Assembly (NCBI GenBank): GCA_963792055.1
Contig: CAWBUV010000017.1
Span: forward strand, 252,283-316,282
DNA: 64,000 nucleotides
Direction of reading: 5' to 3'
DNA from: an uncultured Solibacteraceae bacterium
Lineage (GTDB): Bacteria; Acidobacteriota; Terriglobia; Bryobacterales; Bryobacteraceae
Numbering within the stretch: the stretch's first letter is position 1; every line of letters begins with the position of its first letter. Shown one piece after another: positions 47,163 to 59,476 of the stretch. Position numbers and translations under genes: made by a program. The notes below the pieces were generated by a model. It was not told where the DNA came from. It did no database searches and saw only the letters and a list, made by a program, of their open reading frames with translations.

Positions 47163-48884
47163 TCAGCGGCCGCTCAGTTGCTGCTGTGCCGTGCTGAGCC
47201 CCTGCCGCGCGATGGCGAGTGAGGGGTCAAGCGCCAGCGCGTGCTGGAATTCAGTCACCGCAGCGGCAGGCTCGTTGGTAGCCAGGCGCACCTGTCCCTT
47301 ATACATATAGGTGATGGCGAAGTTGGCATCCAGCTTCTGCGCGGTATCGAAGGCCTCCATAGCCTCTTTCCATGCGGCACGTTTGGCCAGAACATAGCCG
47401 ATCTGCGTGTAAATGTGTGCCGTGGGTTCGATAGCGGCAGCCTGCCGGAACTTCTCCAGAGCTTTTTCCGGCTGGTTCAAGCCGTCGTATGCGAGGCCCC
47501 AGTCCACCAGAAGGTCCGTCGTCGGAGGCTCCCGGCTGGCCGTCTTCTCAAATTCGGCAACGGCGAGATCGTAGCGCCCCTGGTCGAAGTACGCGAAGGC
47601 CAGTTGGAAGTGGGCGCGAGACTTATTTGGTGATTTGAGTGCCGTATCCTGCCAGAGCAGGACGGGGTCGCTCCAAACCTCGGCCCGTGCATGCGTGGCA
47701 ACCGTGGCTGCCAATATCACTATCGCCGCGCCCGTGGCCAGCACCTTGGGCTCCACCTTTACGCGGCGTAGAAGATCAATCGCGACCAGGACCAGGCCGA
47801 GCATCGGCAGGTACATGCGGCGGTCGGCGATGGGATCTTTGATGGGCAGGATGCTCGAAGTAGGAGCCAGCAGCACCAGGAACATGAAGTAGCCATAGCC
47901 CGCCAGCGGAAAGCTGCGGCGATAGCGCCACGCCAGCGCCGCCAGCGCCAGCAATCCGGCGAGCCCGAAGATGGCTCCGTGGTCGAAGAGGCTGCGTGAG
48001 ATCGGGAAGTCCCAGTCCACATTGAGGCGCACCGGTAATACAAAGTTAAAGAGGTACGCGTAAATCACGCGGAACTGCGTGAACAGGTATTGATACCACG
48101 TAAAATCCTTCATCGCGAAACCGGCGCTGCCCGCGGTGCCCACACCGAGAATCAGTCTCCAGAAGAGCGCAACGCCCGCGGCGGCTCCCGCTGCCAGCAC
48201 GACGTACAGCTTCCAATTGGCGAGCACGCTGCGCAGCGGGGAGTCCGGATTCCACCAGATATCGGTCAGGACAAACAGAACCGGCAACACCACTGCCTGC
48301 TCCTTGGTGAGCACGGCGGCTCCGAACAGGGCCACCACCGCGGCCACGCCGGCCCACGAAATGGCCGCCGAGCGGCGGTAAAGGAACGCCGCCAGGCACG
48401 CGGCGCTGAACATTCCGCAGAGCGACTCCGAGCGGCCGGAAATATAAGCGACGCTTTCCGTCTGCAAAGGATGCAGCAGAAACAGGAATGCGCCGAAGGC
48501 CGCAAACGGCGTCCGGCTGCTCTCCTCAGCGCCAGCCCACTCCATCAGGCGCCGAATCACCAGGAACACCAGAATCCCCGCCAGAATGTGGATGACGATG
48601 TTGAAAAAGTGATACGACCAAGTATCCTGCAGCGAAATCCGCGTGTTGACAAAGTAGGTGAACATCAACAGCGGGCGCACCGGACCGATCCACGATGAAA
48701 GCGGTTCCGACGCGGAGGACGTGGCAAACTGCTGCTTGCTGTCGTCGAACAGAAACGCCGCGTGCATCGTCGGGCTGTATGCCCAGAGGAGCGCGGCCAG
48801 CGATACGAACGCGGCGGCGTACCAGACAACGGCAGGCGTGGCAGTGGTCTCCGCCTTCGCGGGTTTAGGCTTCTTGGTTTTCAT
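47163..48884 (-). CDS. TMTC/DUF1736-like membrane protein with C-terminal TPR repeats (PMT-type glycosyltransferase-like)
   Basis: Intact 573-aa ORF with multiple TM segments. DUF1736-like block 'LLHPLQTESVAYISGRSESLCGMF'. C-terminal TPR units, for example 'AHFQLAFAYFDQGRYDLAVAEFEK'. Confidence 0.8.
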   Translation of the reverse strand: MKTKKPKPAKAETTATPAVVWYAAAFVSLAALLWAYSPTMHAAFLFDDSKQQFATSSASEPLSSWIGPVRPLLMFTYFVNTRISLQDTWSYHFFNIVIHILAGILVFLVIRRLMEWAGAEESSRTPFAAFGAFLFLLHPLQTESVAYISGRSESLCGMFSAACLAAFLYRRSAAISWAGVAAVVALFGAAVLTKEQAVVLPVLFVLTDIWWNPDSPLRSVLANWKLYVVLAAGAAAGVALFWRLILGVGTAGSAGFAMKDFTWYQYLFTQFRVIYAYLFNFVLPVRLNVDWDFPISRSLFDHGAIFGLAGLLALAALAWRYRRSFPLAGYGYFMFLVLLAPTSSILPIKDPIADRRMYLPMLGLVLVAIDLLRRVKVEPKVLATGAAIVILAATVATHARAEVWSDPVLLWQDTALKSPNKSRAHFQLAFAYFDQGRYDLAVAEFEKTASREPPTTDLLVDWGLAYDGLNQPEKALEKFRQAAAIEPTAHIYTQIGYVLAKRAAWKEAMEAFDTAQKLDANFAITYMYKGQVRLATNEPAAAVTEFQHALALDPSLAIARQGLSTAQQQLSGR

Positions 48885-49228
48885 GGTTCGTGAGGTTTCG
48901 AAGGTGATATTCGAGAATGGCGACGCGCTGCGCCGAGGCGATATTGTCGTCGCGCAGGTGCGAAATGATCACCGAGAAGCGGAAGAACATGATCAGGAAG
49001 ACGCCTGCGGCGAGCAGGAAAAGGGTCAGCGGGGAATCCGGCAATCCGATCAGGTTTCGCACCGCATCCAGCAGCGGGCGCGCCCGCGAGAGAATCAGCA
49101 TGGCCGCCGGCGGCCAGCAGCCAGCTTACCGAATACTCCACCCGAATGTGCGCCCGGCGCACGCTGACCAGGACCAGGATGAGCAGAATGACGCTCAAAC
49201 CGGTGGTGACGTTCAAGAGGCGGTCCAT
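48865..49228 (-). pseudogene. DUF2304-like small membrane protein; one frame change
   Basis: 'MDRLLNVTTGLSVILLILVLVSVRRAHIRVEYSVSWLLAAG' (ORF 48881..49228) continues as 'MLILSRARPLLDAVRNLIGLPDSPLTLFLLAAGVFLIMFFRFSVIISHL...' in ORF 48865..49101. Confidence 0.7.
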
Positions 49229-49986
49229 CTATCCTCCAGCGCCGCGTTCCCGTTGCGCGCGGTGATAGCGGCGGTCGAATTTCAGTACGTTCACAAAAAC
49301 TCCCAGCAGCACGTGTACCACATAGTAGAGAGACTTGAGCGCCGTGATGGTGGACCGGCCGGTGGTGCGCGGCCGCATCTTGCAGGGCACCTCTTCGAAT
49401 CGGAAACGCCGCCGCTGCAACACGACGAGCGCCTCGATCTCAGGATATTCGAGCGGGAAACTGTCGCGGAAGACGTTCAGCGCGCGGCGGTTGACACCCA
49501 CGAAACCGGACGTGGGGTCCTGCACGTCCTTGCCCAGTACCGGCCGCAGCACCAGGCGAAAAAAGCGGATGCCGAGCGAGCGTATCGCGCCCGTCCGCAG
49601 AGCCGCTCTCGCCGGCAAAGCGCGAGCCGATCACCATTTCACAGCCGCTAGTTTTGAGCCTGTCGAAGACACGGGGAATATCGCGCGCATCGTGCTGCCC
49701 ATCGCCATCCACCCGAATCACGTATTGAAACCCGAGTTCGTAGGCCAGCTTGTAGCCGGCCTGCACACAGCCGCCGAGACCCAGATGGTGGGGCATGGGC
49801 AGCACCTCGGCGCCGGCCTCGCGCGCCACCGCAATCGTGCTATCCGAAGAGCAATCGTCGATCACCAGCACGGGCACGCCCGGGAACGTGTTGATGAATC
49901 TCGCGGACCACGCCGCCGATGGCGCCTTCCTCGTTGAGGGCGGGTACGATGACCAGCAGGGAATCCTGCGTGAGGACGCGGGTCAC
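49229..49986 (-). pseudogene. Family-2 glycosyltransferase (polyprenol-phosphate sugar transferase-like); 2 frame changes
   Basis: GTG 49986 (GTGA overlap with the upstream stop) gives 'VTRVLTQDSLLVIVPALNEEGAIGGVV'. Then 'VLVIDDCSSDSTIAVAREAGAEVL...RVDGDGQHD' (ORF 49440..49877). Then 'IRSLGIRFFRLVLRPVLGKDVQDPTSGFVGVNRRAL...' (ORF 49229..49618). Confidence 0.8.
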
Positions 49987-50993
49987 AGGGCGGCCATCCT
50001 TCGGCGCATGATGGCGTGGCTGCGCAGCAGGCGGCGGAAGATGGCGGGGGTGATCCGCGCGCGTGCGCGGATTTCGCGCCGCTGCCGCCACAAGCGCCCC
50101 AGATTTCCCAGCAGCGCGGCATGCGCGCGAACCACGTACCAAAGCATCCTGGGCCCGGCGTTGCCTTCGGCGCGGAAACGTGCGGCGCTTCCCTGCCCCT
50201 GGAAAATGTACCAGGCGTGCCACAAATATCGCGTCAGCGCGACCAGCGGCGCCGCCAGCAGCATCGGCGCCGGAAAGTTCTTGACCAGCACGAACAGCCG
50301 GTTCCGTTCCACGTAGTAGGCCTTCACCGGCGAGGCGCGCCCGGCGGAGTGCGAGTAGTGGTGCTCCACCACGGCACGAGGGGCATACAGGCACTTCCAG
50401 CCGGCCCAGCGGGCGCGCAAACCGAGGTCGGTATCCTCGCAGTAGAGGAAAAAGTGGTCGTCGAAGCCGCCGATGTCTTCGAGCATGGTGCGCCGGTAGA
50501 GCGCCGACGAACCGCTGGGCATGAGGACTTCCTCCAGCACCGGAAAGTCTTCCGGCAGCCGGCCGTGGCCGCGCTGCTTGCTGCTGCCGTCGCGCGCCAC
50601 CAGCATTCCGGCGGAATCGAGCCGCGGCTCACCGAAGAGGCGCACCTGCGAAGCGCACATGCCCGCATCGGGACGCGCCTCCAGGGCAGCCACCAGTTCG
50701 GCGAGCCAGTCCGGATGGGCCACCGCATCGTCATTGAGCGTGGCCAGATAGGGCGAAGTGGAGGCGCGAAGTCCCTGGTTGATGGCCGTGCCGAAACCGG
50801 CGTTGCGAGCATTTTCGATCACCCGCGCGCCCGGCCCCGTGCCGTTCCGGCGGACCAGGCCGCAGCCGCTGTTATCGACAATCACCACTTCGAGATCCGG
50901 CCTCGTCTGCCGGGAGAGGGACTGCACACACTCCAGAAGCCTCGAATCCGCAGCGAGGGTGGGGATTACCACCGTTACGAGGAAATCAGACAA
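49983..50993 (-). CDS. Family-2 glycosyltransferase (rhamnosyltransferase-like)
   Basis: Intact 336-aa ORF: 'VTVVIPTLAADSRLLECVQSL', 'VIVDNSG', 'LNDDAV', 'FFLYCEDTDLGLRARWAGWKCLYAPRAVVEHH'. Confidence 0.9.
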   Translation of the reverse strand: MSDFLVTVVIPTLAADSRLLECVQSLSRQTRPDLEVVIVDNSGCGLVRRNGTGPGARVIENARNAGFGTAINQGLRASTSPYLATLNDDAVAHPDWLAELVAALEARPDAGMCASQVRLFGEPRLDSAGMLVARDGSSKQRGHGRLPEDFPVLEEVLMPSGSSALYRRTMLEDIGGFDDHFFLYCEDTDLGLRARWAGWKCLYAPRAVVEHHYSHSAGRASPVKAYYVERNRLFVLVKNFPAPMLLAAPLVALTRYLWHAWYIFQGQGSAARFRAEGNAGPRMLWYVVRAHAALLGNLGRLWRQRREIRARARITPAIFRRLLRSHAIMRRRMAAL

Positions 50994-51170
50994 TTCTTGA
51001 TTCTACCCCGCGGCACGGGCGCGATGGCGCAGTGCCGGTGCGCCGGAACGTGAAACGCTGGCGCCGCTACGATCACCATACCGGAAGGGACCCGCTCATA
51101 TGACCCTCCCAACTAGGCGTTGAAGCGGTAAACTATCGAAAGTTCGAATCCGAAACGCAGGAGTCGTGGG

Positions 51171-53810
51171 ATGTCTACGGGTGATGCACTCAGCCCTCAA
51201 TTGGTGTCTTTACAGCGCTTCCAGATGGAGGCGAACTTCGAAGGACTGATCCAACTTCTGGCGAAGAACCTGTATCCGGAGCCGGACGTCTTTGTCCGCG
51301 AGTTGATTCAGAATTCGCACGACAGCGCCGTACTAAGGCAAAAGGACGAACCGGGCTTCATTCCGGAGATCGACGTCTCTTTCGACATCGAGAAGCGTAC
51401 TATTACATTCTCGGATAATGCGCGCGGGATGAACCTGGACGAGATCCGCGGCTTTCTGTCGGTGATCGGCTCGACGGGTACTGGCGCGGAAAGGGAAAGC
51501 CTTGCGAAGCAGGGCCGCGAGAGCGCGCGGAAACTGATCGGCCAGTTTGGCATTGGGATGCTTTCGGCTTTTGTCGTCGCCAGCGAGGTTGTGGTACGGA
51601 CCAGGCGGGTAGGTTCGGAACAGGCCTATATTTGGGTGAATCGGGGCAGCCAGGAATGTACGGTTTATGCGGGGGTCAAGGACGAGTTCGGAACCGAAGT
51701 GACCCTCAGCGTGCGCGAGAGCTTCTCTTACATGCTCGATGAGGGGCGGCTTTCGAAGACCATCACGCGCTATTGCGATTTCCTCCCCATTCCCGTCCGC
51801 TTGAACGGCCGCGGTCCCGTGAATGCCCTCAGCGCGCCCTGGCACCGGGATCAGTGGACTTCGCCGGCGGAAAAAGAGGAGGCCTATGAGCAATTTATCA
51901 TCCGTCATTACAACCCGGACTTGCCGCTGCTGGTTATCCCCATCGATATCGATGAACAGTTCCAGGCACGAGGGGTCTTGTATATACCGGATCGAAAGGT
52001 GTCGAACTCCAATTCCACCGGTGTAATCGACATCTTCGTGCGGCGGATTTTCTTGAGGGGCAACGACAACTCGTTTCTTCCCTCCTGGGCCGGCTTTGTA
52101 CGCGGCGTCATCGACAGTCCGGATCTACAGCCCACCGCGGCACGCGACAACGTGCAACGCAATGAAAACCCGGCCTTCGAGTTTCTCCGGCGCCGCGTCG
52201 CCGATCTGATCATCACGAGGCTCCTGCAGCTTGCGGAAAAGGAGCCCGTACGGTTCCGCCAGGTAAATCACTGGCACCATACGCAGATGAAGGATATGGC
52301 CTTTCAGAACCAGGAAGCCTTTGATCAACTTGCCGGCCTGCTTCTGGTGGACACCAACAAAGGATTGATCTCTCTCAGGGACTACCTGAGCCGGAATCCA
52401 CGCCGAGCCGATAAAGAAAACAAAGCGGCCATCTATTACTTCGTTCATCGTAGCGCCACCTCGCAGTTCTACCGCCTGGCGGACGCCCGCGGGTGGGTCG
52501 TGATCAACGGTTCCGACCGCTCTGAAGAGCGGGTGCTCGAAAAATATGCCAAGCTGAACCACCGCACCATTCATCTGGCGCGAATCGACGATCCGGACAG
52601 TCCCGACCTCTTCGAGTCGATTGGGGAGGAGGATCAAAAGCTTCTGCGGCCCTTAGAAATCGAGCTCGAAAGTGAGATCAGGCGGCGCGGGTTTTCGAAC
52701 GTGCTGGTGAGGACACGTCGTTTCGCGCCGACCGATCTTCCGGCGGTGCTGATCACCACGCCCGAGGGCGAGGTAGACGAAAAGCTCCGCAGCCTGCGCG
52801 ACGATCCCTACTACATGTCCACCATGGACGACGTTGCCCGAGACTTCCTCTCGCAGGGTCCGGCCCGGCCGAGCTACCTCTCGCTCAACGCATCCAATAG
52901 CCTGATCCAAAAGCTGGCCGCAATCGACCGGCGGGAGGATGCAGTGCGGGATGTCATGGCGGGCATCTATCAGAGCGCGGTGCTTCATTCCGAGAATCTG
53001 TTGAATCCGCGAACCGTGAAATCGCTGCATCAGCACCTGGTGGCGCTGCTCGATGCGGTCGTGCAGAAAGACGAAAAGGTTCGTAAGCTGCAACAGAGGC
53101 TGGATCAGGCAGTGAAGGAACTGGCACAGCCACGCGCAGTTGAGGCGGCGCCGCAGGAAAGGGCGGACCATATCCTGCTGTTCATGATCACACCGTTCGG
53201 CGCCGAATATAAGCCGCTCGAAGAGGCCGTGCGACGGGTGTTTGAAACCAAGCCTTACTTCTTTGAATTGCGGCTGGCGCGCGACTACACACACAACTCC
53301 GAAAGCGTGCTCGCCAACGTCCGTGAACACATGCGCCGCGCCAACGGATTCGTGGCCGAGATCACCGAACTGAAGCCCAACGTCATGTTCGAACTAGGTG
53401 CCGCCATGGTTACCAATGGCGGACGTCCTGTATTTGCCCTGCGGGCCGCAACTGCGGACCTGACAAACATACCGGCTGACGTCGGTACCAAGTTGTATGT
53501 CAGCTACAGTTCCTTAAAGGACTCCGTGGAAGCGATCGAAAAGCAGATTCGCGAGGCGTTCGAACAAGGTGGGAGATCGCGTAGCGATGAGATTCAGGGT
53601 TTGCTCGATCAGCGGCGGCAGAAGTTCCTGTCTCGAACACTGCTGCGCAGCCTGGAGCGGCTAAAGGAACTCGAAATCGACGCCCTCACGGGATCCTACC
53701 GGTACGTAGAAGAACTGGTCGCCGCGGATTCCGCCGATGTCGCCAAACGCACAAACTTGCGGGAACGCGTGGTCCTGGCAGTCCAGGACGAGTTACAGCA
53801 GCAGTTATGA
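51171..53810 (+). CDS. Hsp90/HtpG-family paralogue with ~220-aa C-terminal extension (Rossmann-like TIR/NDT-like domain + helical tail)
   Basis: Intact 879-aa ORF; AGGAG lies 9 nt before the ATG. GHKL/Hsp90 blocks: 'VRELIQNSHDSA', 'FSDNARGM', 'VIGSTGTGA', 'IGQFGIGMLSAFVVA'. Middle domain: 'FVRGVIDSPDLQPTAARDNVQRN'. Extra C-terminal domain: 'ILLFMITPFG...FVAEITELKPNVMFELGAAM...RPVFAL'. Confidence 0.85.
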   Translation: MSTGDALSPQLVSLQRFQMEANFEGLIQLLAKNLYPEPDVFVRELIQNSHDSAVLRQKDEPGFIPEIDVSFDIEKRTITFSDNARGMNLDEIRGFLSVIGSTGTGAERESLAKQGRESARKLIGQFGIGMLSAFVVASEVVVRTRRVGSEQAYIWVNRGSQECTVYAGVKDEFGTEVTLSVRESFSYMLDEGRLSKTITRYCDFLPIPVRLNGRGPVNALSAPWHRDQWTSPAEKEEAYEQFIIRHYNPDLPLLVIPIDIDEQFQARGVLYIPDRKVSNSNSTGVIDIFVRRIFLRGNDNSFLPSWAGFVRGVIDSPDLQPTAARDNVQRNENPAFEFLRRRVADLIITRLLQLAEKEPVRFRQVNHWHHTQMKDMAFQNQEAFDQLAGLLLVDTNKGLISLRDYLSRNPRRADKENKAAIYYFVHRSATSQFYRLADARGWVVINGSDRSEERVLEKYAKLNHRTIHLARIDDPDSPDLFESIGEEDQKLLRPLEIELESEIRRRGFSNVLVRTRRFAPTDLPAVLITTPEGEVDEKLRSLRDDPYYMSTMDDVARDFLSQGPARPSYLSLNASNSLIQKLAAIDRREDAVRDVMAGIYQSAVLHSENLLNPRTVKSLHQHLVALLDAVVQKDEKVRKLQQRLDQAVKELAQPRAVEAAPQERADHILLFMITPFGAEYKPLEEAVRRVFETKPYFFELRLARDYTHNSESVLANVREHMRRANGFVAEITELKPNVMFELGAAMVTNGGRPVFALRAATADLTNIPADVGTKLYVSYSSLKDSVEAIEKQIREAFEQGGRSRSDEIQGLLDQRRQKFLSRTLLRSLERLKELEIDALTGSYRYVEELVAADSADVAKRTNLRERVVLAVQDELQQQL

Positions 53811-54961
53811 GTCAGGCAGCGAACGCGAACGCAAGTGCGATTGCTCAGGGCCGAAAGCGGATGGAAGAGTTGATTGACGCCGCTGACAGCTTATACACGC
53901 GCTCTGAATATGAGCAGGCTGGCGATCTCTACCGTCGGGCTTGCGAAATTGCCGACGCGATTGGGGCGCGCGAGGAGTGGTTCCAATATCGCCTGTGGTG
54001 GGCCGAATCCCGAAGACTGCACGGGCGGCTTCGGGAGGCATTTGTGCTTGTCGAGCCACTCTTGAAGGACGACGATACCCCAGCAAGACCCGCTGATCGC
54101 AGTATGGCAGTCCAAGTCTATACAAAGCTGGTAATCAATCTTCCTGTGGCACTGGCGACTATAGAGAAAACCCTGGAGCGGGCTGAGACTTTAGCACTCG
54201 ATTCGGGTGTTCCAAAAACGCTGTCGGTGTATACTCACCTGCGTGCCCGCTTGGCCTTGTGGAGCGGAGAGTATGATCGCGCAGAGACCTACGAGGAGGA
54301 GGCCTGGGCTATATGGTCTTCAGACTACCCCAACGTCGTGGCCGACCATTACTTCGTTCTCCGTGGCACGATCAGTCTTTTGAAACGCAGGCCGGACGCA
54401 CTCGACGCGTTGTTTAAAGAGTGGAGTACCTGCGAAGACGAACTCCCGACATTGCGTGAGGCTTCTCAATTGGATCTACGATCGCGCCGTGCAAGGCTGG
54501 AAAAGAATTTGCCCCTGGCTATCGATTATGGCCGGCGTTGCCGCCTCATCAATAACGAGGCAGTCGCACCTCTGATCCGGGCCTTTTTGAGCACTGGAGA
54601 TATTGCGCTTGCAATCGAGCCATTATTGCAGATGCGTCGCGATTGCAGAAGAAGCGAGGGAGGGCGTGCACGATTCGAAACCGCTCGCTTGAACCTGGAC
54701 TTTCATCTTGCGGCGACACGCTCCGTGGCCGGCATGGCCCCCGCAGATGACGAATTCGATCTCGATTTTCCCGCGCCGGCGTCGATTCGAGATCCCAAAG
54801 CCACGGCGAAGGCCCTCCGTCGAACTCGTAGGGCCCTACGGACTGTGCAAGAGATCGCGCGCTCTCTCGACGAAAAGCTGGAATGCACTTCTCACCTCGA
54901 AGAAGTTCGCAAACGTCAGAAGCGCATCGAAGATATCGAGGACGCCCTGGAACGTTCCTAA
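53807..54961 (+). CDS. All-helical TPR-like repeat protein, translationally coupled to the Hsp90 paralogue
   Basis: Intact 384-aa ORF with an ATGA overlap at 53807-53810. TPR-like units such as 'ADSLYTRSEYEQAGDLYRRACEIA' and 'ALWSGEYDRAETYEEEAWAIW'. Charged coiled-coil-like C-terminus. Confidence 0.75.
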   Translation: MSQAANANASAIAQGRKRMEELIDAADSLYTRSEYEQAGDLYRRACEIADAIGAREEWFQYRLWWAESRRLHGRLREAFVLVEPLLKDDDTPARPADRSMAVQVYTKLVINLPVALATIEKTLERAETLALDSGVPKTLSVYTHLRARLALWSGEYDRAETYEEEAWAIWSSDYPNVVADHYFVLRGTISLLKRRPDALDALFKEWSTCEDELPTLREASQLDLRSRRARLEKNLPLAIDYGRRCRLINNEAVAPLIRAFLSTGDIALAIEPLLQMRRDCRRSEGGRARFETARLNLDFHLAATRSVAGMAPADDEFDLDFPAPASIRDPKATAKALRRTRRALRTVQEIARSLDEKLECTSHLEEVRKRQKRIEDIEDALERS

Positions 54962-54962
54962 T

Positions 54963-55328
54963 CTACCGCCGCGCCAGCAGAGCACCCAGCCAGACCGCCG
55001 CGTAGCCAAACACGACGCTGCCCACCACATTCGCCAGCCCGATCCAGAAGCCGCCTCCACGCACCGCCGCATAGGTCTCCCATTCGAAACTGGAAAATGT
55101 CGTGTAGCCGCCCAGGAACCCCACCACCAACACCAGCCGCCAATAAGGATGAGGTTGGCGCTCCGTGAGCAGCGTCATGATCAGTCCGATCAGGAAGCAC
55201 CCGGTAACGTTGACCACCATCGTGCCCGTCGGAAAGCGCGTGCCGAACCGGCTGGCGATCACGGAACTCGCAAAGTACCGCGCCAGCGAACCTACACCGC
55301 CTCCCAGCAGGATCAGCAGGTACTTCAT
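54963..55328 (-). CDS. crcB: Fluoride ion channel CrcB/FluC
   Basis: ATG 55328 gives 'MKYLLILLGGGVGSLARYF...FPTGTMVVNVTGCFLIG...GFLGGYTTFSSF', a typical CrcB of 121 aa (122 codons including the stop). The ORF track fuses it in frame to tsaC; see the findings. Confidence 0.9.
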   Translation of the reverse strand: MKYLLILLGGGVGSLARYFASSVIASRFGTRFPTGTMVVNVTGCFLIGLIMTLLTERQPHPYWRLVLVVGFLGGYTTFSSFEWETYAAVRGGGFWIGLANVVGSVVFGYAAVWLGALLARR

Positions 55329-55356
55329 CGGCGCCGGCCCGATCTTCGACGGCGCC

Positions 55357-55994
55357 TTACGACGATTCCAGGCACTCCGCGATTTCCTTCTCCGCAATCG
55401 CGCCGCCTTGATGACGCGCCAATACGGCTCGGTGATATCGATGGTAGTCGCGCCCTCGCCCGCGCAATGCCCGCCATCCAGCACCAGGTCCACACGGCCG
55501 TCCATCATGCCGAACACATCGATGCCGCTGTGGCACGTGGGATGTCCCGAAATATTGGCGCTCGTCGAAATCAATGGCTGGTCCAACAGCGCGATCAGCC
55601 TCGTTGCCGTCTCCGAGCGCGAATGGCGTAGCGCCAGGCGTCCCGTATTGCCGGTCACCTTGAGGGGAATCTTCGCCGCCGCCGGCACGATCATCGTCAG
55701 CGGCCCTGGCCAGAACCGCCGCGCCAGGATGAAAAAGCGCGCCGTCAGTTCGCTCGCCAGTTCCTCCGCCATCATCGTGTCGCGGATGAGGATGGGCAGC
55801 GCGCGGCTGGATTCGCGCCCCTTGGCGTGAAACACGCCGGTGACGGCGCGCAGGTTGTAGGGGTCGGCCACCAGGATGTACAGCGCGTCGGTGGGGATCG
55901 CCACCACCTTTCCGCGGCGCACGGCGGCGGCGGCTCGCTCCAGCGCTTCCGGCTGGGGATCCTGGGGATCGATTTCGACCAGGTCGGTTGCCAT
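55357..55994 (-). pseudogene. tsaC: L-threonylcarbamoyladenylate synthase (YrdC/TsaC domain); one frame change near the 3' end
   Basis: 'VVAIPTDALYILVADP', 'RFWPGPLTMIVP' and 'ISTSANISGHP' are in the 55994 frame. The family-typical end 'GAIAEKEIAECLESS*' is in ORF 55357..56073. One base added within aaggcggcgcg (about 55401-55410) joins them. Confidence 0.8.
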
Positions 55995-56020
55995 TCTTGA
56001 GCTCTTTGTCCGTTCCGATC

Positions 56021-57887
56021 TTAGCGGGCTTCGATGGCCTCGGCAACGTCGATTGCCATCTGATAACGGCCAAACGGGGCGCTAAGTTGCACGCCCTGCA
56101 CCATCTTACTCACCCGGAAAACCATTTCCCGCGCGATCGCGACGCCTTCCTCGCGGGCCTTCTCGGCGTTATCCACCCGCCGCATACGTTCCATGAACAC
56201 ATCCGGCACCGGCACGCGCAGTTCGTTGACCATGAACTCCGCGTTGCGGAAGCTGGTGAGCGGCCAGATGCCGCAAAGAACCGGAATCTTGACGTGCTCG
56301 ATGCGCTTCAGAAACGCCTCCAGCAGATCCAGATCGAAGACCGGCTGGGTCACCACGTACTCCGCGCCCGCCTCCACCTTCCATTCGAAGCGGCGAATTT
56401 CCTCATCCATATTCAACGCGCCCGGGTTGGCGCCGACGCCGATCAATAGCGCCGTCTGCGACCCCATCGGATTGCCGCCGATATCCAGGCCGTGATTCAG
56501 ATTGCGCACGATATTCACCAGCCCGATGGCGTCCACATCGAACACCGCGGTGGCATCCGGGTACGCACCCATGCGCGGCGGATCGCCCGTGATGCAGATC
56601 AGGTTGCGCACGCCCAGGCTGTGCGCCCCCAGCAGTTCGCTCTGTATGCCGAGAATGTTCCGGTCGCGGCAGCAGAAGTGGTTGACCGCTTCGATGCCCG
56701 CCTGTTCCTGGATCAACTGGCAGGTGACCTGTGCGCTCATGCGCGCGCTGGCGCGCGGGCCGTCGGGAACATTGATCGCGTCGATGCCATGGTCGGCGCA
56801 CAGTTTCGCGCCCGCGATCTCGCGCGTCGCATCCACGCCGCGCGGCGGCAGAATCTCGACAAAGGAGACGAACTGCCCGGCCGCCAGTTTGGCGCCGACC
56901 TTGGATTTCTCGGCCACCGGAACCGGCGTGAGCGCCTGCGCCTTGACCTTCGGCTCTTCCACCGTCACCGCCAGCTTCTTCTGCAGCGGCTGCAGCGACC
57001 GGGTCTCCGAGCGGATCAGCTTGATGTGGTCCGGCGTGGTGCCGCAGCAGCCGCCGATCACCTTGACGCCCGCCCACAGCAGCCGGCGCGCGTATTGCGA
57101 CATGTACTCCGGCGAGCAGAGGTAAATGTTGCGGCCTTCCACCCGCATCGGCAGCCCGGCGTTGGGCATCGCGCTCAGCGGTTTGGTGGCATGCTCCATC
57201 ATGCGCTCGACGGTTTCGAGCGTCGCCTTGGGACCCACCGAGCAATTCAGGCCGATCGCATCCACCGGCCACGTATTCATTTCGCGCGTGAAGGTCTCGG
57301 TATCGGTGCCGCCCGGCAGATGGCCGAAATCGTCGATGGTCACCTGCGCGATCATCGGAATTTCGCCGCCCGCGGCTTCGTGCGCCGGCCATGACCGCTT
57401 CGCGCAGTTCGTCCAGATTGCCGAAGGTCTCGAAGATCAGCAGGTCGACACCGGCCTCCAGCAGGGCATCGATCTGTTCGCGGAACGCGGCGCGCGCCTC
57501 CGCGAAGGAAGTGGGGCCCAGCGGCTCGATGCGGACGTTGAGCGGTCCCACGGCGCCGGCCACAAACGCGCCATTGGCCGCTTCGCGCGCCAGCCGGACC
57601 CCGGCCAGGTTGATGGCGTGCAGCTTTTCCGCAAAGCCGAACGCTCCCAAACGTTGCCGGGTGGCGCCGAACGTGTTGGTCTCCAGGATCTCGGCGCCCG
57701 CCTTCGCGTATTCCTGATGGATCTGGCGAACCATGTCGGGCGACGAGAGGTTCAACTCGTCGAAGCAGCGATTGATGAACACGCCGCGCGAGTAAAGCAT
57801 GGTACCCATCGCGCCATCGGCCACGATCACGCGGCTCGCCAGTTGGTCACGGAATTCCTGGGCGCGGGTACGGATAGATGTAGTCAT
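56021..57887 (-). pseudogene. Bifunctional homocysteine S-methyltransferase / 5,10-methylenetetrahydrofolate reductase (YitJ-like); one frame change
   Basis: The N-terminal Hcy-binding domain 'VIVADGAMGTMLY...ILETNTFGA' is in ORF 56403..57902 (ATG 57887). From about 57380 the product continues in ORF 56021..57355 ('GLNCSVGP', 'GGCCGTTPDHI'), then the MTHFR domain ('FVSFVEILPPRG...ICITGDPP'). Confidence 0.85.
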
Positions 57888-57995
57888 GAGTGACGGTCGC
57901 AAATGCCGTTCGCAATGCGCGAAATGCGATAGTTTTCAGTTTAACGCACGTGGACTCCACGGCGCTCATCCACCTGATACCATGTGCATCAAACC

Positions 57996-59476
57996 ATGCG
58001 ACGTCGTGATCTTCTCCGTACCTGCGCGGCCGCTCCCCTCGCGCTTGCCGCCGGCAACCGCGCCTTCGGCCAGAATCGCTATCAGCCCACCTGGGAATCC
58101 ATCGACCAGCGCCCCAGCCCCGCCTGGTACACCGATTCCAAGTTCGGCATCTTCATTCACTGGGGCGTCTACTCCGTCCCCTCGTATGCCCCCGTCAAGT
58201 CCAAGGGCGAAACCATGTACGCCGAGTGGTATTGGAACTCGCTCAACAAGCCGAATTCCTCCACCCGCAAGTTCCATGATCGCAACTACGGCGCCAACTT
58301 CCCCTACTTCGATTTCGCTCCCATGTTCCGCGCCGAACTCTACAATCCGGACCACTGGGCCGACGTCTTCACCCGCTCCGGCGCGAAGTACGTCGCTCTC
58401 ACCTCCAAGCATCACGAGGGCTTCACCCTATGGCGCAACGAGCAGGCCAACAAGACCTGGGGACGCCCGTGGAACGCGGTGGATATCGGACCAAAACGCG
58501 ACATTGCGCTGGACCTGATGGAGGCCGGCCGCCGGCGCGGGCTGCACATGGGAATCTACTACTCGCTCTACGAGTGGTACAACCCGCTCTGGCTGTCCGA
58601 CAAGAAACGCTACGTGGCGGAGCACATGTTCCCGCAGTTCAAGGACGCCGTCACGCATCTCAAGCCGAGCATCATCTTCTCGGACGGCGAATGGGAGCTG
58701 ACCAGCGCCGAATGGCGCTCGCCCGAGCTGCTGGCGTGGCTCTTCAACGAATCGCCGGTGCGCGACGAAGTCGTGATCGACGACCGCTGGGGCAAGGACA
58801 CCCGCCACAAACACGGCGGTTACTACACCACCGAGTACACGTCCGGCATGCAGCAGGCGGCTCACCCCTGGGAAGAGAGCCGCGGCATGGGCTATTCCTA
58901 CGGATACAACCGCATGGAGACGCTGGCCGATTACCACAGCGACCGCGAACTGCTCATGATGCTGCTCGACATCGTGGCGCGCGGCGGCAATCTGCTGCTC
59001 GATATCGGACCCACCGGCGACGGACGCATCCCCGTCGTGATGGAAGAGCGCCTCATCCAGATCGGCGACTTCCTCGCGCCCCAACGGCGAAGCCATCTAC
59101 GGCACTCACGCGCGCCACACGCCGCGCCAGTGGAGTAAGGGCGCCATCCCCAAGCTCGAAGAGAAGGAGTTCATGTCGGACTACGACATCACCAAACTGG
59201 TGGATACTCCGCCCGCGGGCTACGCTCGCGTAGACGCCTTCTACACGGCGAAGAACGACGCGGTCTACGCAATTCTGCCGCGCCGCCCCGTCCGCGAAGT
59301 CGTGCTCGACGATATCGATGCTCCCTCGGGCGTGCGCGTCACCCTACTCGAAGGCGGCCAGCAGTTGGAATCCACGCGTCAGGGCAGGCAATTGCAAATC
59401 CGCATCCCCGACGCAGTATCGGCCAGCGTTACCGGCACGCCAGGCATACGTCTTGAAGCTCGCCGGCGCCAAGTAA
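57996..59476 (+). pseudogene. GH29 alpha-L-fucosidase with twin-arginine leader; 2 frame changes
   Basis: 'MRRRDLLRTCAAAPLALAAG', 'KFGIFIHWGVYSVP' and 'HHEGFTLW' are in ORF 57984..59138. After the CCCC run at 59079-59082 the expected 'NGEAIYGTH...' is in the frame of ORF 59173..59508. The end 'LPARQAYVLKLAGAK*' (TAA 59474-59476) is in a third frame. Confidence 0.85.

What the first reader, a model, noticed from the sequence alone, without database searches (positions are those of the whole stretch)
53160..53580. C-terminal extension of the Hsp90 paralogue looks like a TIR/nucleoside-deoxyribosyltransferase-like Rossmannoid domain
Residues ~665-790 read 'ILLFMITPFGAEYKPLEEAVRRVFETKPYFFELRLARD...VLANVREHMRRANGFVAEITELKPNVMFELGAAMVTNGGRPVFALR...KLYVSY'. 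This is an alternating strand/helix pattern. It contains the signature I associate with NDT/TIR-like flavodoxin-fold domains: 'hhhhMPF' in strand 1 and 'ADhT..NPNVhhELG.A...kPVhhh' with a conserved Glu, here E741 (GAA 53391-53393). In known systems such domains act as NAD(+)/nucleotide-cleaving effectors or nucleotide sensors. The final ~70 aa ('LTGSYRYVEELVAADSADVAKRTNLRERVVLAVQDEL') resemble a helix-hairpin-helix unit.
Basis: inference. Interest (0 to 1): 0.7.

Follow-up and report, generated by a model that had tools for sequence, protein, structure and literature searches.

The report
Hsp90 paralogue carrying TIR/NDT-like module
The tail of this bacterial Hsp90-like protein is a real two-part module: a TIR/nucleoside-deoxyribosyltransferase-like domain with a conserved catalytic-type glutamate, then a helix-hairpin-helix domain. 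The gene is always paired with a TPR partner gene, which suggests an undescribed chaperone-based conflict (immunity-type) system.

Summary
ORF 51171..53810 (+, 879 aa) is an Hsp90 paralogue with intact GHKL ATPase motifs. Its C-terminal about 215 residues form a conserved two-domain module.

- **Rossmannoid domain.** Residues about 667-798 fold (AlphaFold2 pLDDT 94) as a five-stranded flavodoxin-like domain. The best structural matches are DNPH1/Rcl, nucleoside deoxyribosyltransferases and TIR domains.
- **Sequence support.** The family profile hits only DNPH1/Rcl among solved structures and aligns E741 with the Glu of the DNPH1 'GYELG' motif. 21 of 48 family members hit Pfam PF10137 (CAP12/Pycsar TIR), but the window protein itself stays below threshold.
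- **E741.** It is conserved in 185 of 186 Hsp90-fused copies.
- **(HhH)2 domain.** Residues about 818-879 are a degenerate (HhH)2 domain of the UvrC/XPF/ERCC1/RAD51-N type.
- **Mobility.** The same module is fused elsewhere to TIR_2, LRR, TPR, cNMP-binding, STAND and EAD8+trypsin domains. In some operons, Glu-less copies sit on trypsin proteases beside the Hsp90 gene.
- **Partner.** A translationally coupled TPR gene (53807..54961) follows the Hsp90 gene in at least 27 of 32 loci across about ten phyla.

Best reading: an assembly-dependent N-glycosidase/adaptor module of an undescribed Hsp90-TPR conflict system. The fold assignment is solid. The enzymatic activity and any defence role are inferred.

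The parts
51171..53810 (+). Complete ORF, 879 aa: Hsp90 paralogue with a C-terminal two-domain extension.
   Evidence: ORF list. A 100%-identity protein P0010 exists in public metagenomes, and about 80 full-length orthologues of 850-900 aa cover 98% of it.
51294..51635 (+). GHKL (Hsp90-type) ATP-binding domain core, residues 42-155.
   Evidence: Pfam HATPase_c_3 at E 7.8e-7. E44, N48, D51, D82, G86 and GQFGxG are invariant in 120 homologues. The window protein uniquely reads DNARGM instead of DNGIGM.
51873..53084 (+). Hsp90 middle and C-terminal (dimerisation) region, residues 235-638.
   Evidence: Pfam HSP90 scores 67.9 bits against a gathering score of 24.4. NCBIfam PRK14083 'HSP90 family protein' matches residues 18-636 at 312 bits, below its 455-bit cut-off. 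The middle-domain Arg (R325, 'TAARDN') is invariant.
53085..53168 (+). Linker between the Hsp90 C-domain and the module, residues 639-666 (KDEKVRKLQQRLDQAVKEL...QERAD).
   Evidence: It lies between the end of the Pfam HSP90 match and strand 1 of the model. Extension-less 630-644 aa paralogues cover only about 70% of the query. The linker's structure was not modelled.
53169..53564 (+). NDT/DNPH1/TIR-like Rossmannoid (flavodoxin-like) domain, residues 667-798.
   Evidence: AlphaFold2 pLDDT 94 with a (beta-alpha)x5 layout. Foldseek PDB and BFVD hits. Profile hits to DNPH1/Rcl. PF10137 and PF05014 hits across the family.
53391..53393 (+). GAA codon of E741, the catalytic-position glutamate in 'NVMFELG'.
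   Evidence: Sequence read. Conserved in 185/186 Hsp90-fused and 85/90 other copies. Aligned to the Glu of DNPH1 'GYELG'.
53565..53621 (+). Connecting segment with one helix, residues 799-817, including the start of the conserved 'R..KRFLSRTLL' motif.
   Evidence: Helix 145-153 of the model corresponds to residues 806-814. Conserved columns L820/S821 follow immediately.
53622..53807 (+). Degenerate (HhH)2 domain, residues 818-879. The hairpins read 'RLKELE' and 'RTNLRE' and lack the canonical GhG.
   Evidence: Profile A5 hits UvrC, XPF, Topo V, RAD51D, Hef and ERCC1. Per-member hits to HHH_5, HHH_2 and RAD51D_N. In the AlphaFold2 model, residues 20-80 have pLDDT above 90 with five helices. Foldseek top hits are RadA/RAD51-paralogue N-domains.
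53807..54961 (+). Translationally coupled partner gene, 384 aa, a TPR-repeat protein. Its ATG overlaps the stop codon of the Hsp90 gene (ATGA).
   Evidence: Sequence read. Homologous partners follow the Hsp90 gene in S. roseum, Nostoc and other loci. Profile A6 hits consensus TPR at 1.8e-10, KLC1 at 1e-6 and IFIT1 at 8e-5. 8/24 members hit TPR_12.

Best explanation
The C-terminal about 215 residues are a mobile two-domain module grafted onto a dimeric, ATPase-competent Hsp90 paralogue. The module is a divergent NDT/DNPH1/TIR-type Rossmannoid domain followed by a degenerate (HhH)2 domain. The Hsp90 paralogue works with a dedicated TPR partner encoded by the overlapping downstream gene.

**Proposed mechanism**
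1. The Hsp90 dimer holds two modules side by side behind its C-terminal dimerisation domain.
2. The TPR protein acts as a co-chaperone-like sensor or adaptor.
3. On a trigger, most likely an invading phage or mobile-element component, the ATP-driven Hsp90 conformational cycle rearranges or oligomerises the modules.
4. A composite active site around E741 then becomes competent. This follows the logic of NDT/DNPH1 dimers and TIR assemblies.
5. The site cleaves an N-glycosidic bond of NAD+ or of a (deoxy)nucleotide. The (HhH)2 domain contributes module-module contacts and/or DNA contact.
6. In larger operons the same module, sometimes without the Glu, sits on trypsin-like proteases or TIR_2 proteins. 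There it serves as a homotypic docking domain that recruits extra effectors to the Hsp90 core.

**Shown:** the folds, the conserved residues, the domain architectures, the operon conservation and the intact ATPase motifs.

**Inferred:** the enzymatic activity, the substrate, the trigger, the role of the TPR partner and any defence function.
For: **Fold and active-site position**
- AlphaFold2 pLDDT 94.
- Foldseek hits to DNPH1, NDT and TIR.
- E741 aligned to the Glu of DNPH1 'GYELG'.
- PF10137 and PF05014 hits across the family.

**Conservation**
- The conserved polar residues all sit at the C-terminal ends of strands, where Rossmannoid folds bind ligands: T674/P675, R704/D705, N716, E730, N735/N737, E741, R752/P753, D770, Y779.
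- Glu is kept in 185/186 Hsp90-fused copies.

**Effector-like usage**
- The module follows sensor-type domains: LRR_5 (P0156, P0203, L026), TPR (P0186, L047), cNMP-binding (P0142) and a 2620-aa STAND-like protein.
- P0142 has the CNBD-TIR order of Pycsar effectors as described in 10.64898/2026.08.12.744502.

**Adaptor usage**
- L012 encodes Hsp90-module, then TPR, then module-EAD8-trypsin.
- L033 and L036 encode trypsin-module with Glu changed to V or M, a module-only protein (L033 only) with Glu changed to L, the TPR partner, and an Hsp90-module that keeps Glu.
- L047 encodes TPR-module next to module-TIR_2.

**Hsp90 competence:** the GHKL motifs and the middle-domain Arg are invariant.

**Operon**
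- A 4-nt ATGA overlap links the two genes.
- The partner is adjacent in at least 27 of 32 loci across about ten phyla.
- The partner is a TPR protein.

**Conflict-type contexts elsewhere:** type I restriction-modification plus primase genes (L003), integrases, NYN and RHS genes (L004, L006), and an integrase plus D5-like primase next to a TIR_2-module gene (L010).
Against: - No activity or phenotype data exist, and no literature was found.
- PADLOC models match only the generic GHKL N-domain.
- The window protein is below the gathering score of PF10137 and PF05014.
- Foldseek E-values are only about 1e-3, and CheY-like receivers also appear.
- In the window the pair is flanked by housekeeping-type genes (glycosyltransferases, YrdC/CrcB, a methionine-pathway gene), not by a defence island.
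- Fusion of the module to bona fide effectors (TIR_2, trypsin) fits an adaptor or sensor role as well as an enzymatic one.
- Extension-less paralogues of 630-644 aa exist, and the one locus examined (L007) keeps the TPR partner. The module is therefore not essential to the Hsp90-TPR core.
- The window's HhH hairpins lack the DNA-binding GhG signature.
- Its GHKL motif II carries a unique G84A/I85R change.
Confidence: 0.45

Rival explanations
1. The module is mainly a homotypic adaptor or assembly domain, in the sense of an effector-associated domain. It has the TIR/NDT fold but is not itself the killing enzyme. It would dock module-bearing effectors (trypsin-like proteases, TIR_2 NADases), encoded in cis or in trans, onto the Hsp90-TPR core. 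The conserved pocket would be structural or would bind a regulatory ligand.
For: - Several module-bearing proteins are encoded in one operon, with the module fused to recognised effectors. L012 has module-EAD8-trypsin. L033 and L036 have trypsin-module. L047 has TPR-module plus module-TIR_2.
- The catalytic-position Glu is lost exactly in the accessory copies (V, M or L in L033/L036; Q in the TIR_2-fused P0272).
- The module lies directly next to EAD8 in P0132.
- Scaffold TIRs (MyD88, MAL filaments) are among the top structural matches.
- (HhH)2 domains of ERCC1/XPF and RAD51 paralogues are protein-protein interfaces (my own knowledge; hits).
Against: - The window's system, and most loci, encode only the Hsp90-module and TPR proteins. 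No other effector is present to recruit.
- Near-invariance of E741 and about a dozen polar pocket residues over about ten phyla is unusual for a pure adaptor.
- Architectures with a sensor-type domain and no other effector (LRR, TPR, CNBD plus module) need the module to be the output.
Confidence: 0.25
2. The module is a nucleotide- or DNA-sensing regulatory domain of a specialised but non-immune chaperone. It would bind a nucleotide-derived ligand in the E741 pocket, or DNA through (HhH)2. It would thereby tune the ATPase or client cycle of an Hsp90 paralogue whose TPR partner is a co-chaperone for housekeeping or stress clients.
For: - The Hsp90 core is fully conserved and ATPase-competent.
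- The Hsp90-TPR pair also exists without the module.
- The window locus sits among housekeeping-type genes.
- Folds of this type include ligand sensors (my own knowledge). DisA-type proteins use HhH domains to couple DNA state to an enzymatic domain, and DisA appears among the weak hits.
Against: - The distribution is patchy and phylum-hopping.
- Related loci lie next to integrases, restriction-modification, RHS, NYN and primase genes.
- The module is shuffled combinatorially with TIR_2, STAND, LRR and EAD8/trypsin.
- The partner evolves fast, at 16-34% identity between loci.
- All of these are hallmarks of conflict systems rather than proteostasis genes.
Confidence: 0.15
3. The module is a DNA-directed N-glycosidase. 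The (HhH)2 domain would clamp DNA and the NDT-like domain would excise bases, possibly modified phage bases, from DNA rather than acting on free NAD+ or nucleotides.
For: - The closest sequence and structure relatives are deoxyribose-specific N-glycosidases (DNPH1/Rcl, NDT, hmCMP hydrolase).
- The fused domain belongs to the UvrC/XPF/RAD51-N class of DNA-binding (HhH)2 domains.
- NDT domains in Abi-like proteins have already been proposed to attack DNA (PMC3710099).
Against: - The hairpins lack the GhG motif in the window protein, and only one hairpin keeps a single Gly in the family consensus ('TGL').
- No known NDT-family enzyme acts on polymeric DNA (my own knowledge).
- More members hit the NADase-type PF10137 than PF05014.
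Confidence: 0.1

Closest known systems
DNPH1/Rcl and nucleoside 2-deoxyribosyltransferases (Pfam PF05014)
   Same: - Both have a five-stranded flavodoxin-like fold.
- The strand-3/helix motif 'hhAEhs..p.V.hELG' places the Glu at the nucleophile position.
- A polar residue in the preceding helix (the 'NV' of NVREH) aligns near DNPH1 D80.
- The enzymes act as dimers, and here dimerisation would be provided by the Hsp90 C-domain (inference).
   Different: - The window protein scores 17.5 bits against PF05014's gathering score of 28.8.
- Strand 1 reads 'FMITPF' rather than the 'YF(A/C)G' of NDT/DNPH1.
- No phosphate-binding Gly-rich loop is recognisable.
- The domain is fused to (HhH)2 and to an Hsp90 paralogue, whereas NDT/DNPH1 enzymes are free-standing.
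CAP12/Pycsar-type TIR effector domain (Pfam PF10137) and bacterial TIR NADases
   Same: - This is the most frequent Pfam hit in the family: 21/48 members, and one passes the threshold.
- TIR structures (MyD88, MAL, SPARTA TIR-APAZ, B. cereus TIR) are top Foldseek hits.
- One family member has the CNBD-then-effector order of PycTIR/PucTIR (10.64898/2026.08.12.744502).
- Homotypic use of the domain in several proteins of one operon resembles TIR-TIR assembly.
   Different: - Only the C-terminal third of the PF10137 profile (positions about 72-118 of 119) is matched.
- No cyclase or CD-NTase gene is among the ORFs examined around the window locus, 48000-58000.
- The window protein is sub-threshold at 16.7 bits against 24.7.
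- The domain always carries a C-terminal (HhH)2 domain, which I do not know from Cap12/PycTIR.
Chaperone-centred, effector-associated-domain conflict systems (MoxR-vWA and GTPase/Hsp70 ternary systems; Kaur et al. 2020, PMC7159879)
   Same: - An NTP-driven chaperone is paired with a peptide-binding co-chaperone-like partner.
- Effectors are variable (trypsin, TIR).
- A shared docking domain is present on both the core and the effector proteins.
- EAD8 is fused to one version of the module.
- The system is enriched in multicellular or filamentous lineages such as Nostoc, Microcoleus, Streptomyces and Myxococcales.
   Different: - The engine is an Hsp90/GHKL ATPase with a TPR partner, not MoxR-vWA or a GTPase.
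- Neither eLife paper mentions Hsp90 or GHKL.
- The docking domain is itself a catalytic-looking TIR/NDT fold.
Eukaryotic Hsp90 with TPR co-chaperones (Hop, SGT1 and others), including HSP90-SGT1 support of TIR-NLR immune receptors
   Same: An Hsp90 ATPase has a dedicated TPR protein and is linked to a TIR-like domain. This is a resemblance of components only.
   Different: - No MEEVD-type C-terminal peptide is present; the protein ends ...DELQQQL.
- The TPR partner has no detectable CS/SGS or Hop-like domains.
- Homology of the pairing, as opposed to convergence, was not tested.
(HhH)2 domains of UvrC, XPF/ERCC1/Hef and the RAD51/RadA N-terminal domain
   Same: - Both have five helices with two helix-hairpin-helix units.
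- Profile hits lie at E 1e-3 to 2e-2.
- The model superposes at 1.4-2.0 A over about 50 residues and shares 30% identity with the RAD51D N-domain.
   Different: - The hairpin Gly residues are largely lost: the family consensus has 'RL....' in hairpin 1 and 'TGL' in hairpin 2, and the window has 'TNL'.
- No single Pfam HhH model matches the window's own tail.

Membership tests
Hsp90 family (GHKL ATPase + S5-fold middle domain + C-terminal dimerisation domain) | GHKL motifs I-III (E..N..D, D.G.G, GQFG.G) and the catalytic Arg of the middle domain. | tested here: met
   E44, N48, D51, D82, G86, G124-QFG-x-G129 and R325 are all present and invariant in 120 homologues. The only deviation is G84A/I85R in motif II of the window protein.
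Hsp90 family (GHKL ATPase + S5-fold middle domain + C-terminal dimerisation domain) | Curated profile score above threshold. | tested here: met
   Pfam HSP90 scores 67.9 bits against a gathering score of 24.4, and HATPase_c_3 scores 29.6 against 25. As an equivalog of HtpG or PRK14083 the test is NOT met (279 vs 371 bits and 312 vs 455 bits). It is therefore a paralogue, not HtpG.
Nucleoside 2-deoxyribosyltransferase / DNPH1 family (PF05014) | Flavodoxin-like fold with the nucleophile Glu in the strand-3/helix motif. | tested here: met
   AlphaFold2 model. Foldseek hits to DNPH1 and NDT with target-normalised TM 0.5-0.7. HMM alignment of 'VMlELG' to DNPH1 'GYELG'.
Nucleoside 2-deoxyribosyltransferase / DNPH1 family (PF05014) | Profile score above the gathering threshold, plus the other active-site residues (Tyr in strand 1, Asp pair binding the deoxyribose hydroxyls). 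| tested here: not met
   The window protein scores 17.5 bits against 28.8. Only 9/48 family members hit at E<=0.1. Strand 1 is 'LLFMITPF' with no equivalent Tyr. Asp equivalents are ambiguous: N716 aligns next to the DNPH1 D80 position.
CAP12/Pycsar-type TIR domain (PF10137) / TIR NADases | Profile score above the gathering threshold. | tested here: not met
   The window protein scores 16.7 bits against 24.7. 21/48 relatives hit at E<=0.1, and one relative (P0188) reaches 26.6 bits. Only profile positions about 72-118 are matched.
CAP12/Pycsar-type TIR domain (PF10137) / TIR NADases | Conserved catalytic Glu and assembly-dependent NAD+ hydrolysis. | not testable with these tools
   The Glu is conserved. 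Its structural equivalence to the TIR catalytic Glu could not be checked, because residue-level structural alignments and coordinates are not returned. Activity needs a biochemical assay.
Pycsar / CBASS effector | A cognate nucleotide cyclase or CD-NTase in the operon, and a ligand-sensing domain (CNBD, SAVED, STING) on the effector. | tested here: not met
   The window neighbours are glycosyltransferases, the TPR partner and a YrdC/CrcB-like gene. No CNBD, SAVED or STING domain is found in the 879-aa protein. One distant family member (P0142) does carry a CNBD, but its contig is too short to show a cyclase.
(HhH)2 domain | Two helix-hairpin-helix units joined by a linker helix (five-helix fold). 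| tested here: met
   The helices are predicted at pLDDT above 90. Foldseek top hits are RadA/RAD51/RAD51C/D N-domains at 1.4-2.0 A, although E is only 0.1-1 for this 60-residue domain. Profile hits to UvrC, XPF, Hef and ERCC1.
(HhH)2 domain | GhG-type hairpin signature that contacts DNA phosphates. | tested here: not met
   The window hairpins read 'ERLKELEID' and 'KRTNLRERV'. The family consensus keeps only 'TGL' in hairpin 2.
Effector-associated-domain (EAD) type adaptor, in the sense of Kaur et al. 2020 | The same domain is present on a core component and on separately encoded effectors of one operon. | tested here: met
   This pattern is seen in loci L012, L033, L036 and L047. It is not seen in the window's own two-gene locus. 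Physical homotypic binding was not tested.
Known anti-phage defence systems (PADLOC-DB v2) | A match of the proteins to a defence-system model. | tested here: not met
   Only the generic GHKL N-domain matches TmtA and REase_II models (E 1e-8 to 3e-2). The tail gives a TIR 'Effector' model at E 0.024, and the partner gives no hit.

The most novel reading that the evidence does not exclude
The locus would be the minimal form of an undescribed, widely transferred prokaryotic immune system. Its engine is an Hsp90 paralogue with its own TPR co-chaperone, and its output is a TIR/NDT-like domain that both assembles and cleaves NAD+ or nucleotides. This would be a bacterial counterpart, possibly an evolutionary relative, of the HSP90/TPR-co-chaperone/TIR-receptor logic of plant and animal innate immunity. 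It would also be the first dedicated TPR co-chaperone of a bacterial Hsp90.
Probability: 0.15. Interest if true: 0.85.

Novelty: new variant of a known kind. Interest (0 to 1): 0.62.

Why it matters
- **Bacterial Hsp90 biology.** As far as I know, bacterial Hsp90 (HtpG) is regarded as lacking co-chaperones and as having only a diffuse proteostasis role. Here an Hsp90 paralogue has an obligatory TPR partner gene and, in a large subfamily, a built-in TIR/NDT-like catalytic-looking domain. Its relatives are shuffled with TIR_2, STAND, LRR, CNBD and EAD8-trypsin modules. If the operon is an immune system, GHKL/Hsp90 chaperones would join MoxR, Hsp70 and STAND ATPases as engines that set the threshold for suicide effectors.
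- **A tractable test system.** The minimal version has two genes. It would allow direct study of how a chaperone cycle controls TIR-like enzyme assembly.
- **Annotation.** The work defines a family of roughly a thousand 50%-identity cluster representatives, made of a Rossmannoid domain plus (HhH)2. Current Pfam models mostly miss it, and databases label these proteins simply 'molecular chaperone HtpG' or 'ATP-binding protein'.

Tried and rejected
- **Single-sequence searches of the tail.** Pfam, NCBIfam, PADLOC and PDB gave only sub-threshold or spurious hits, such as DARPin-type designed repeats and VPS28. Family profiles were needed.
- **Word-indexed homology search.** With the tail alone it found only 9 relatives. 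With the TPR partner it found only 2. Relatives had to be recovered through the full-length protein, the exhaustive profile search and a genome scan.
- **Structure prediction of the TPR partner.** The partner was classified by profile-versus-PDB and per-member Pfam hits instead.
- **P0132 (module-EAD8-trypsin).** I suspected it was a truncated Hsp90 fusion. Its N-terminus shows no Hsp90 similarity, and its downstream gene is not the TPR partner, so I rejected that idea.
- **P0142 (CNBD-module).** Its contig is too short to look for a cyclase.
- **Literature searches.** Six searches on Hsp90/HtpG/GHKL combined with TIR, NDT, defence or conflict systems, and text searches within four candidate papers, found no description of this fusion or operon.
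- **SLOG fold.** It was not specifically recovered by any search.
- **'CheY-like receiver' reading.** NarL and StyR appear in Foldseek, but with rmsd 14-16 A over the whole two-domain model, and no receiver-family profile hit was obtained. I rejected this reading.

Full report
**1. What is there**

The finding lies in ORF 51171..53810 (+), 879 aa.
- Residues 1-638 are an Hsp90 paralogue. Pfam HATPase_c_3 matches residues 42-155, and Pfam HSP90 matches residues 235-638 at 67.9 bits against a gathering score of 24.4.
- NCBIfam PRK14083 'HSP90 family protein' matches residues 18-636 at 312 bits, below its 455-bit equivalog cut-off. HtpG scores 279 against 371. The protein is therefore a paralogue, not HtpG.
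- The GHKL motifs (E44, N48, D51, D82, G86, GQFGxG) and the middle-domain arginine (R325) are invariant in 120 homologues. The window protein alone has DNARGM instead of DNGIGM.
- The stated coordinates 53160..53580 are residues 664-804. Codon 53391-53393 is GAA = E741.

**2.

- The C-terminal 236 aa find homologues at E 1e-47 to 1e-66.
- A profile of them finds 995 representatives at E<=1e-3 and 217 at E<=1e-10, among 1.84 billion 50%-identity clusters.
- About 80 full-length orthologues of 850-900 aa cover 98% of the protein. They come from Nostoc, Streptosporangium roseum, Actinoplanes, Acidobacteria and other groups. A sister group of 630-644 aa proteins lacks the extension.
- In a 62-sequence non-redundant alignment the invariant residues are P695, N737, M739, E741, G743, P753, Y779 and L820.
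- Over 285 module copies, Glu occupies the E741 column in 185/186 Hsp90-fused and 85/90 other copies.

**3. Fold of residues 667-798**

- AlphaFold2 on the 62-sequence alignment gives pLDDT 94.2 and pTM 0.91, with five beta-alpha units followed by a helical domain.
- Foldseek against PDB is headed by human DNPH1/rat Rcl, MyD88 and MAL TIR filaments, SPARTA TIR-APAZ, purine and nucleoside deoxyribosyltransferases, and a Bacillus cereus TIR. E is about 1e-3 and target-normalised TM is 0.63-0.70. Response regulators also appear, but with rmsd 14-16 A.
- Against BFVD the top matches are CMP/hydroxymethyl-CMP hydrolase, NDTs and a CAP12/Pycsar TIR protein (E 9e-5 to 1e-3).
- At the sequence level the window protein alone is sub-threshold: PF05014 at 17.5 bits and PF10137 at 16.7 bits.
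- In a 48-member diverse alignment, 21 members hit PF10137 (best 1.8e-6) and 9 hit PF05014 (best 1.1e-4). One relative passes PF10137's gathering score (26.6 vs 24.7 bits).
- The family profile searched against all PDB sequences returns only DNPH1/Rcl chains at E<=0.11 (E 0.009-0.11). Three unrelated chains follow at E about 1. The profile aligns '...adgfIAEiselnpnVmlELGav' to 'ADVVVAEVTQPSLGVGYELGRAV'.
- E741 thus sits on the Glu that, from established knowledge of NDT (Glu98; cited in PMC3710099) and DNPH1, is the catalytic nucleophile.
- The other conserved polar residues all lie at the C-terminal ends of the strands, the usual ligand crevice of such folds. They are T674/P675, R704/D705, N716, E730, N735/N737, R752/P753, D770 and Y779.

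**4. Fold of residues 818-879**

- A 43-member profile of the tail hits the (HhH)2 domains of UvrC (1.2e-3), XPF (1.5e-3), Topo V, RAD51D, Hef, ERCC1 and NAD-ligase.
- 15/43 members hit HHH_5, 5 hit HHH_2 and 4 hit RAD51D_N.
- A separate AlphaFold2 model has pLDDT above 90 for residues 20-80. It superposes on RadA/RAD51/RAD51C/D N-terminal domains at 1.4-2.0 A over about 50 residues. The E-values (0.1-1) are not significant for so small a domain.
- The hairpins are degenerate. The family consensus keeps only 'TGL' in hairpin 2, and the window has 'TNL'.
More precisely, this is a degenerate (HhH)2 domain, and its DNA-binding competence is uncertain.

**5. The module is mobile**

The Rossmannoid domain and (HhH)2 travel together; most hits cover profile positions 1-212. 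Besides Hsp90, the module is fused to the following:
- TIR_2 (P0175, P0188, P0226, P0272, L047)
- BspA-type LRR (P0156, P0203, L026)
- TPR (P0186, L047)
- a cNMP-binding domain (P0142)
- Clp_N (P0131)
- a 2620-aa STAND-like ATPase (P0154)
- EAD8 plus a trypsin-like peptidase (P0132, P0133, L012)
- a trypsin-like peptidase in N-terminal position (L033, L036)

The CNBD-then-effector order matches Pycsar/Pucsar TIR effectors (10.64898/2026.08.12.744502).

**6. Operon**

- The stop codon of the Hsp90 gene overlaps the ATG of a 384-aa ORF, 53807..54961, through an ATGA overlap.
- Homologous partners follow the Hsp90 gene in S. roseum, Nostoc and gut Firmicutes. One also follows an extension-less 638-aa paralogue, at 30% identity and E 2e-36.
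- A scan of one genome per species found 36 loci. They span Cyanobacteria, Acidobacteriota, Streptomyces, Lachnospiraceae/Faecalibacterium, Bacteroidota, Planctomycetota, Myxococcales, Proteobacteria, Abditibacteriota and Chloroflexota.
- The partner is adjacent in at least 27 of 32 Hsp90-type loci.
- The partner evolves fast, at 16-34% identity, and is a TPR protein. Its profile hits consensus TPR at 1.8e-10, kinesin light chain at 1e-6 and IFIT1 at 8e-5, and 8/24 members hit TPR_12.
- Some loci add more genes. L012 encodes Hsp90-module, TPR, then module-EAD8-trypsin. L033 and L036 encode trypsin-module, a module-only protein (L033 only), TPR, then Hsp90-module. L047 encodes TPR-module next to module-TIR_2.
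- In L033 and L036 the accessory copies have lost the Glu (V, M or L), while the Hsp90-fused copy keeps it.
- Neighbourhoods elsewhere include type I restriction-modification and primase genes, integrases, NYN and RHS. The window's own flanks look like housekeeping genes.

**7. Interpretation**

- Shown: a bona fide NDT/DNPH1/TIR-like domain with a conserved catalytic-position Glu, followed by a degenerate (HhH)2 domain. It sits on an ATPase-competent Hsp90 paralogue that is genetically coupled to a TPR protein. The module also behaves as a shuffled unit typical of conflict systems.
- Inferred, confidence about 0.45: the Hsp90 dimer, with the TPR partner acting as a sensor or co-chaperone, uses its ATP cycle to bring modules into an active dimer or oligomer. 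That assembly cleaves NAD+ or a (deoxy)nucleotide. Glu-less copies on proteases dock extra effectors.
- Rivals: a pure adaptor (0.25), a regulatory ligand or DNA sensor of a non-immune chaperone (0.15), and a DNA-directed glycosidase (0.10).
- Against all functional claims: there are no experimental data, no literature was found, and PADLOC does not recognise the system.

**8. Comparison and novelty**

- The domain works like, and is a distant relative of, NDT/DNPH1 and PF10137-type TIR domains. The window protein does not meet the curated threshold of either family, so I do not file it as a member.
- The system resembles the chaperone-plus-EAD conflict systems of Kaur et al. (PMC7159879), but its engine is Hsp90-TPR, which those papers do not mention.
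- I rate it a new variant of a known kind, with interest 0.62. The fold call itself is unsurprising once profiles are used. The Hsp90-TPR-TIR/NDT-like operon architecture, and its parallel with eukaryotic HSP90/TPR co-chaperone immunity, would surprise specialists and can be tested directly.

Noticed in passing
window 51414-51431 (residues 82-87): GHKL motif II reads DNARGM in the window protein. All other 119 aligned homologues have DN-G-[ILV]-GM, so G84A and I85R are unique to this sequence. This could weaken ATP binding, or it could be a harmless variant.
   Followed up: partly
window 49229-49937 (- strand): A family-2 glycosyltransferase appears split over two overlapping reading frames (ORFs 49440..49877 and 49229..49618). 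This suggests a frameshift near 49.6 kb, either a pseudogene or an assembly indel.
   Followed up: no
window 56021-57902 (- strand): A homocysteine S-methyltransferase/methylenetetrahydrofolate-reductase-like gene is split between two frames (ORFs 56403..57902 and 56021..57355). This suggests a frameshift near 57.36-57.40 kb.
   Followed up: no
window 54963-55994 (- strand): One uninterrupted ORF joins a YrdC/Sua5-like N-terminal part to a CrcB-like membrane part (MKYLLILLGGGVGSLARY...). It is either a fusion or two genes in the same frame with no intervening stop codon (assignment by eye, not by profile).
   Followed up: no
L033:825-6636 and L036:1608-6630 (Microcoleus, Oscillatoriaceae): These are expanded operons with the order trypsin-module, module-only protein (L033 only), TPR partner, Hsp90-module. 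The accessory modules have lost the catalytic-position Glu (V, M or L), while the Hsp90-fused copy keeps it.
   Followed up: partly
L012:4045-9855 (Microcoleus): A third gene directly after the TPR partner encodes an N-terminal region of unknown type, the module, EAD8 and a trypsin-like peptidase. Here the Glu is retained.
   Followed up: partly
L007:7001-10125 (Pyrinomonadaceae-like metagenome contig): The 638-aa paralogue without the extension keeps the overlapping TPR partner (30% identity, E 2e-36). The Hsp90-TPR pair is therefore the core, and the module is an accretion. A vWA gene and a MerR gene lie immediately upstream.
   Followed up: partly
P0142 / L008:1414-2493: This protein has a cNMP-binding domain followed by the module, the same order as Pycsar/Pucsar CNBD-TIR effectors. 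Its contig is only 2.8 kb, so the presence of a cyclase could not be checked.
   Followed up: partly
P0039 (909 aa), residues 669-904: The module matches the profile in two overlapping pieces (profile positions 1-117 and 93-212). This indicates an internal duplication or insertion of about 25 residues around the 'PADL..KL' segment.
   Followed up: no
L016 and L019 (Ideonella, Planctomycetaceae): A more divergent Hsp90 clade (E about 1e-38 to the window's Hsp90 part) carries the module but has no detectable TPR partner downstream. L016 instead has a 369-aa ORF directly upstream.
   Followed up: no
window 52001-54000: G+C is 0.584 here, against 0.61-0.64 in the neighbouring 2-kb bins. This slight dip over the 3' half of the Hsp90 gene and the start of the partner would fit horizontal acquisition.
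   Followed up: no
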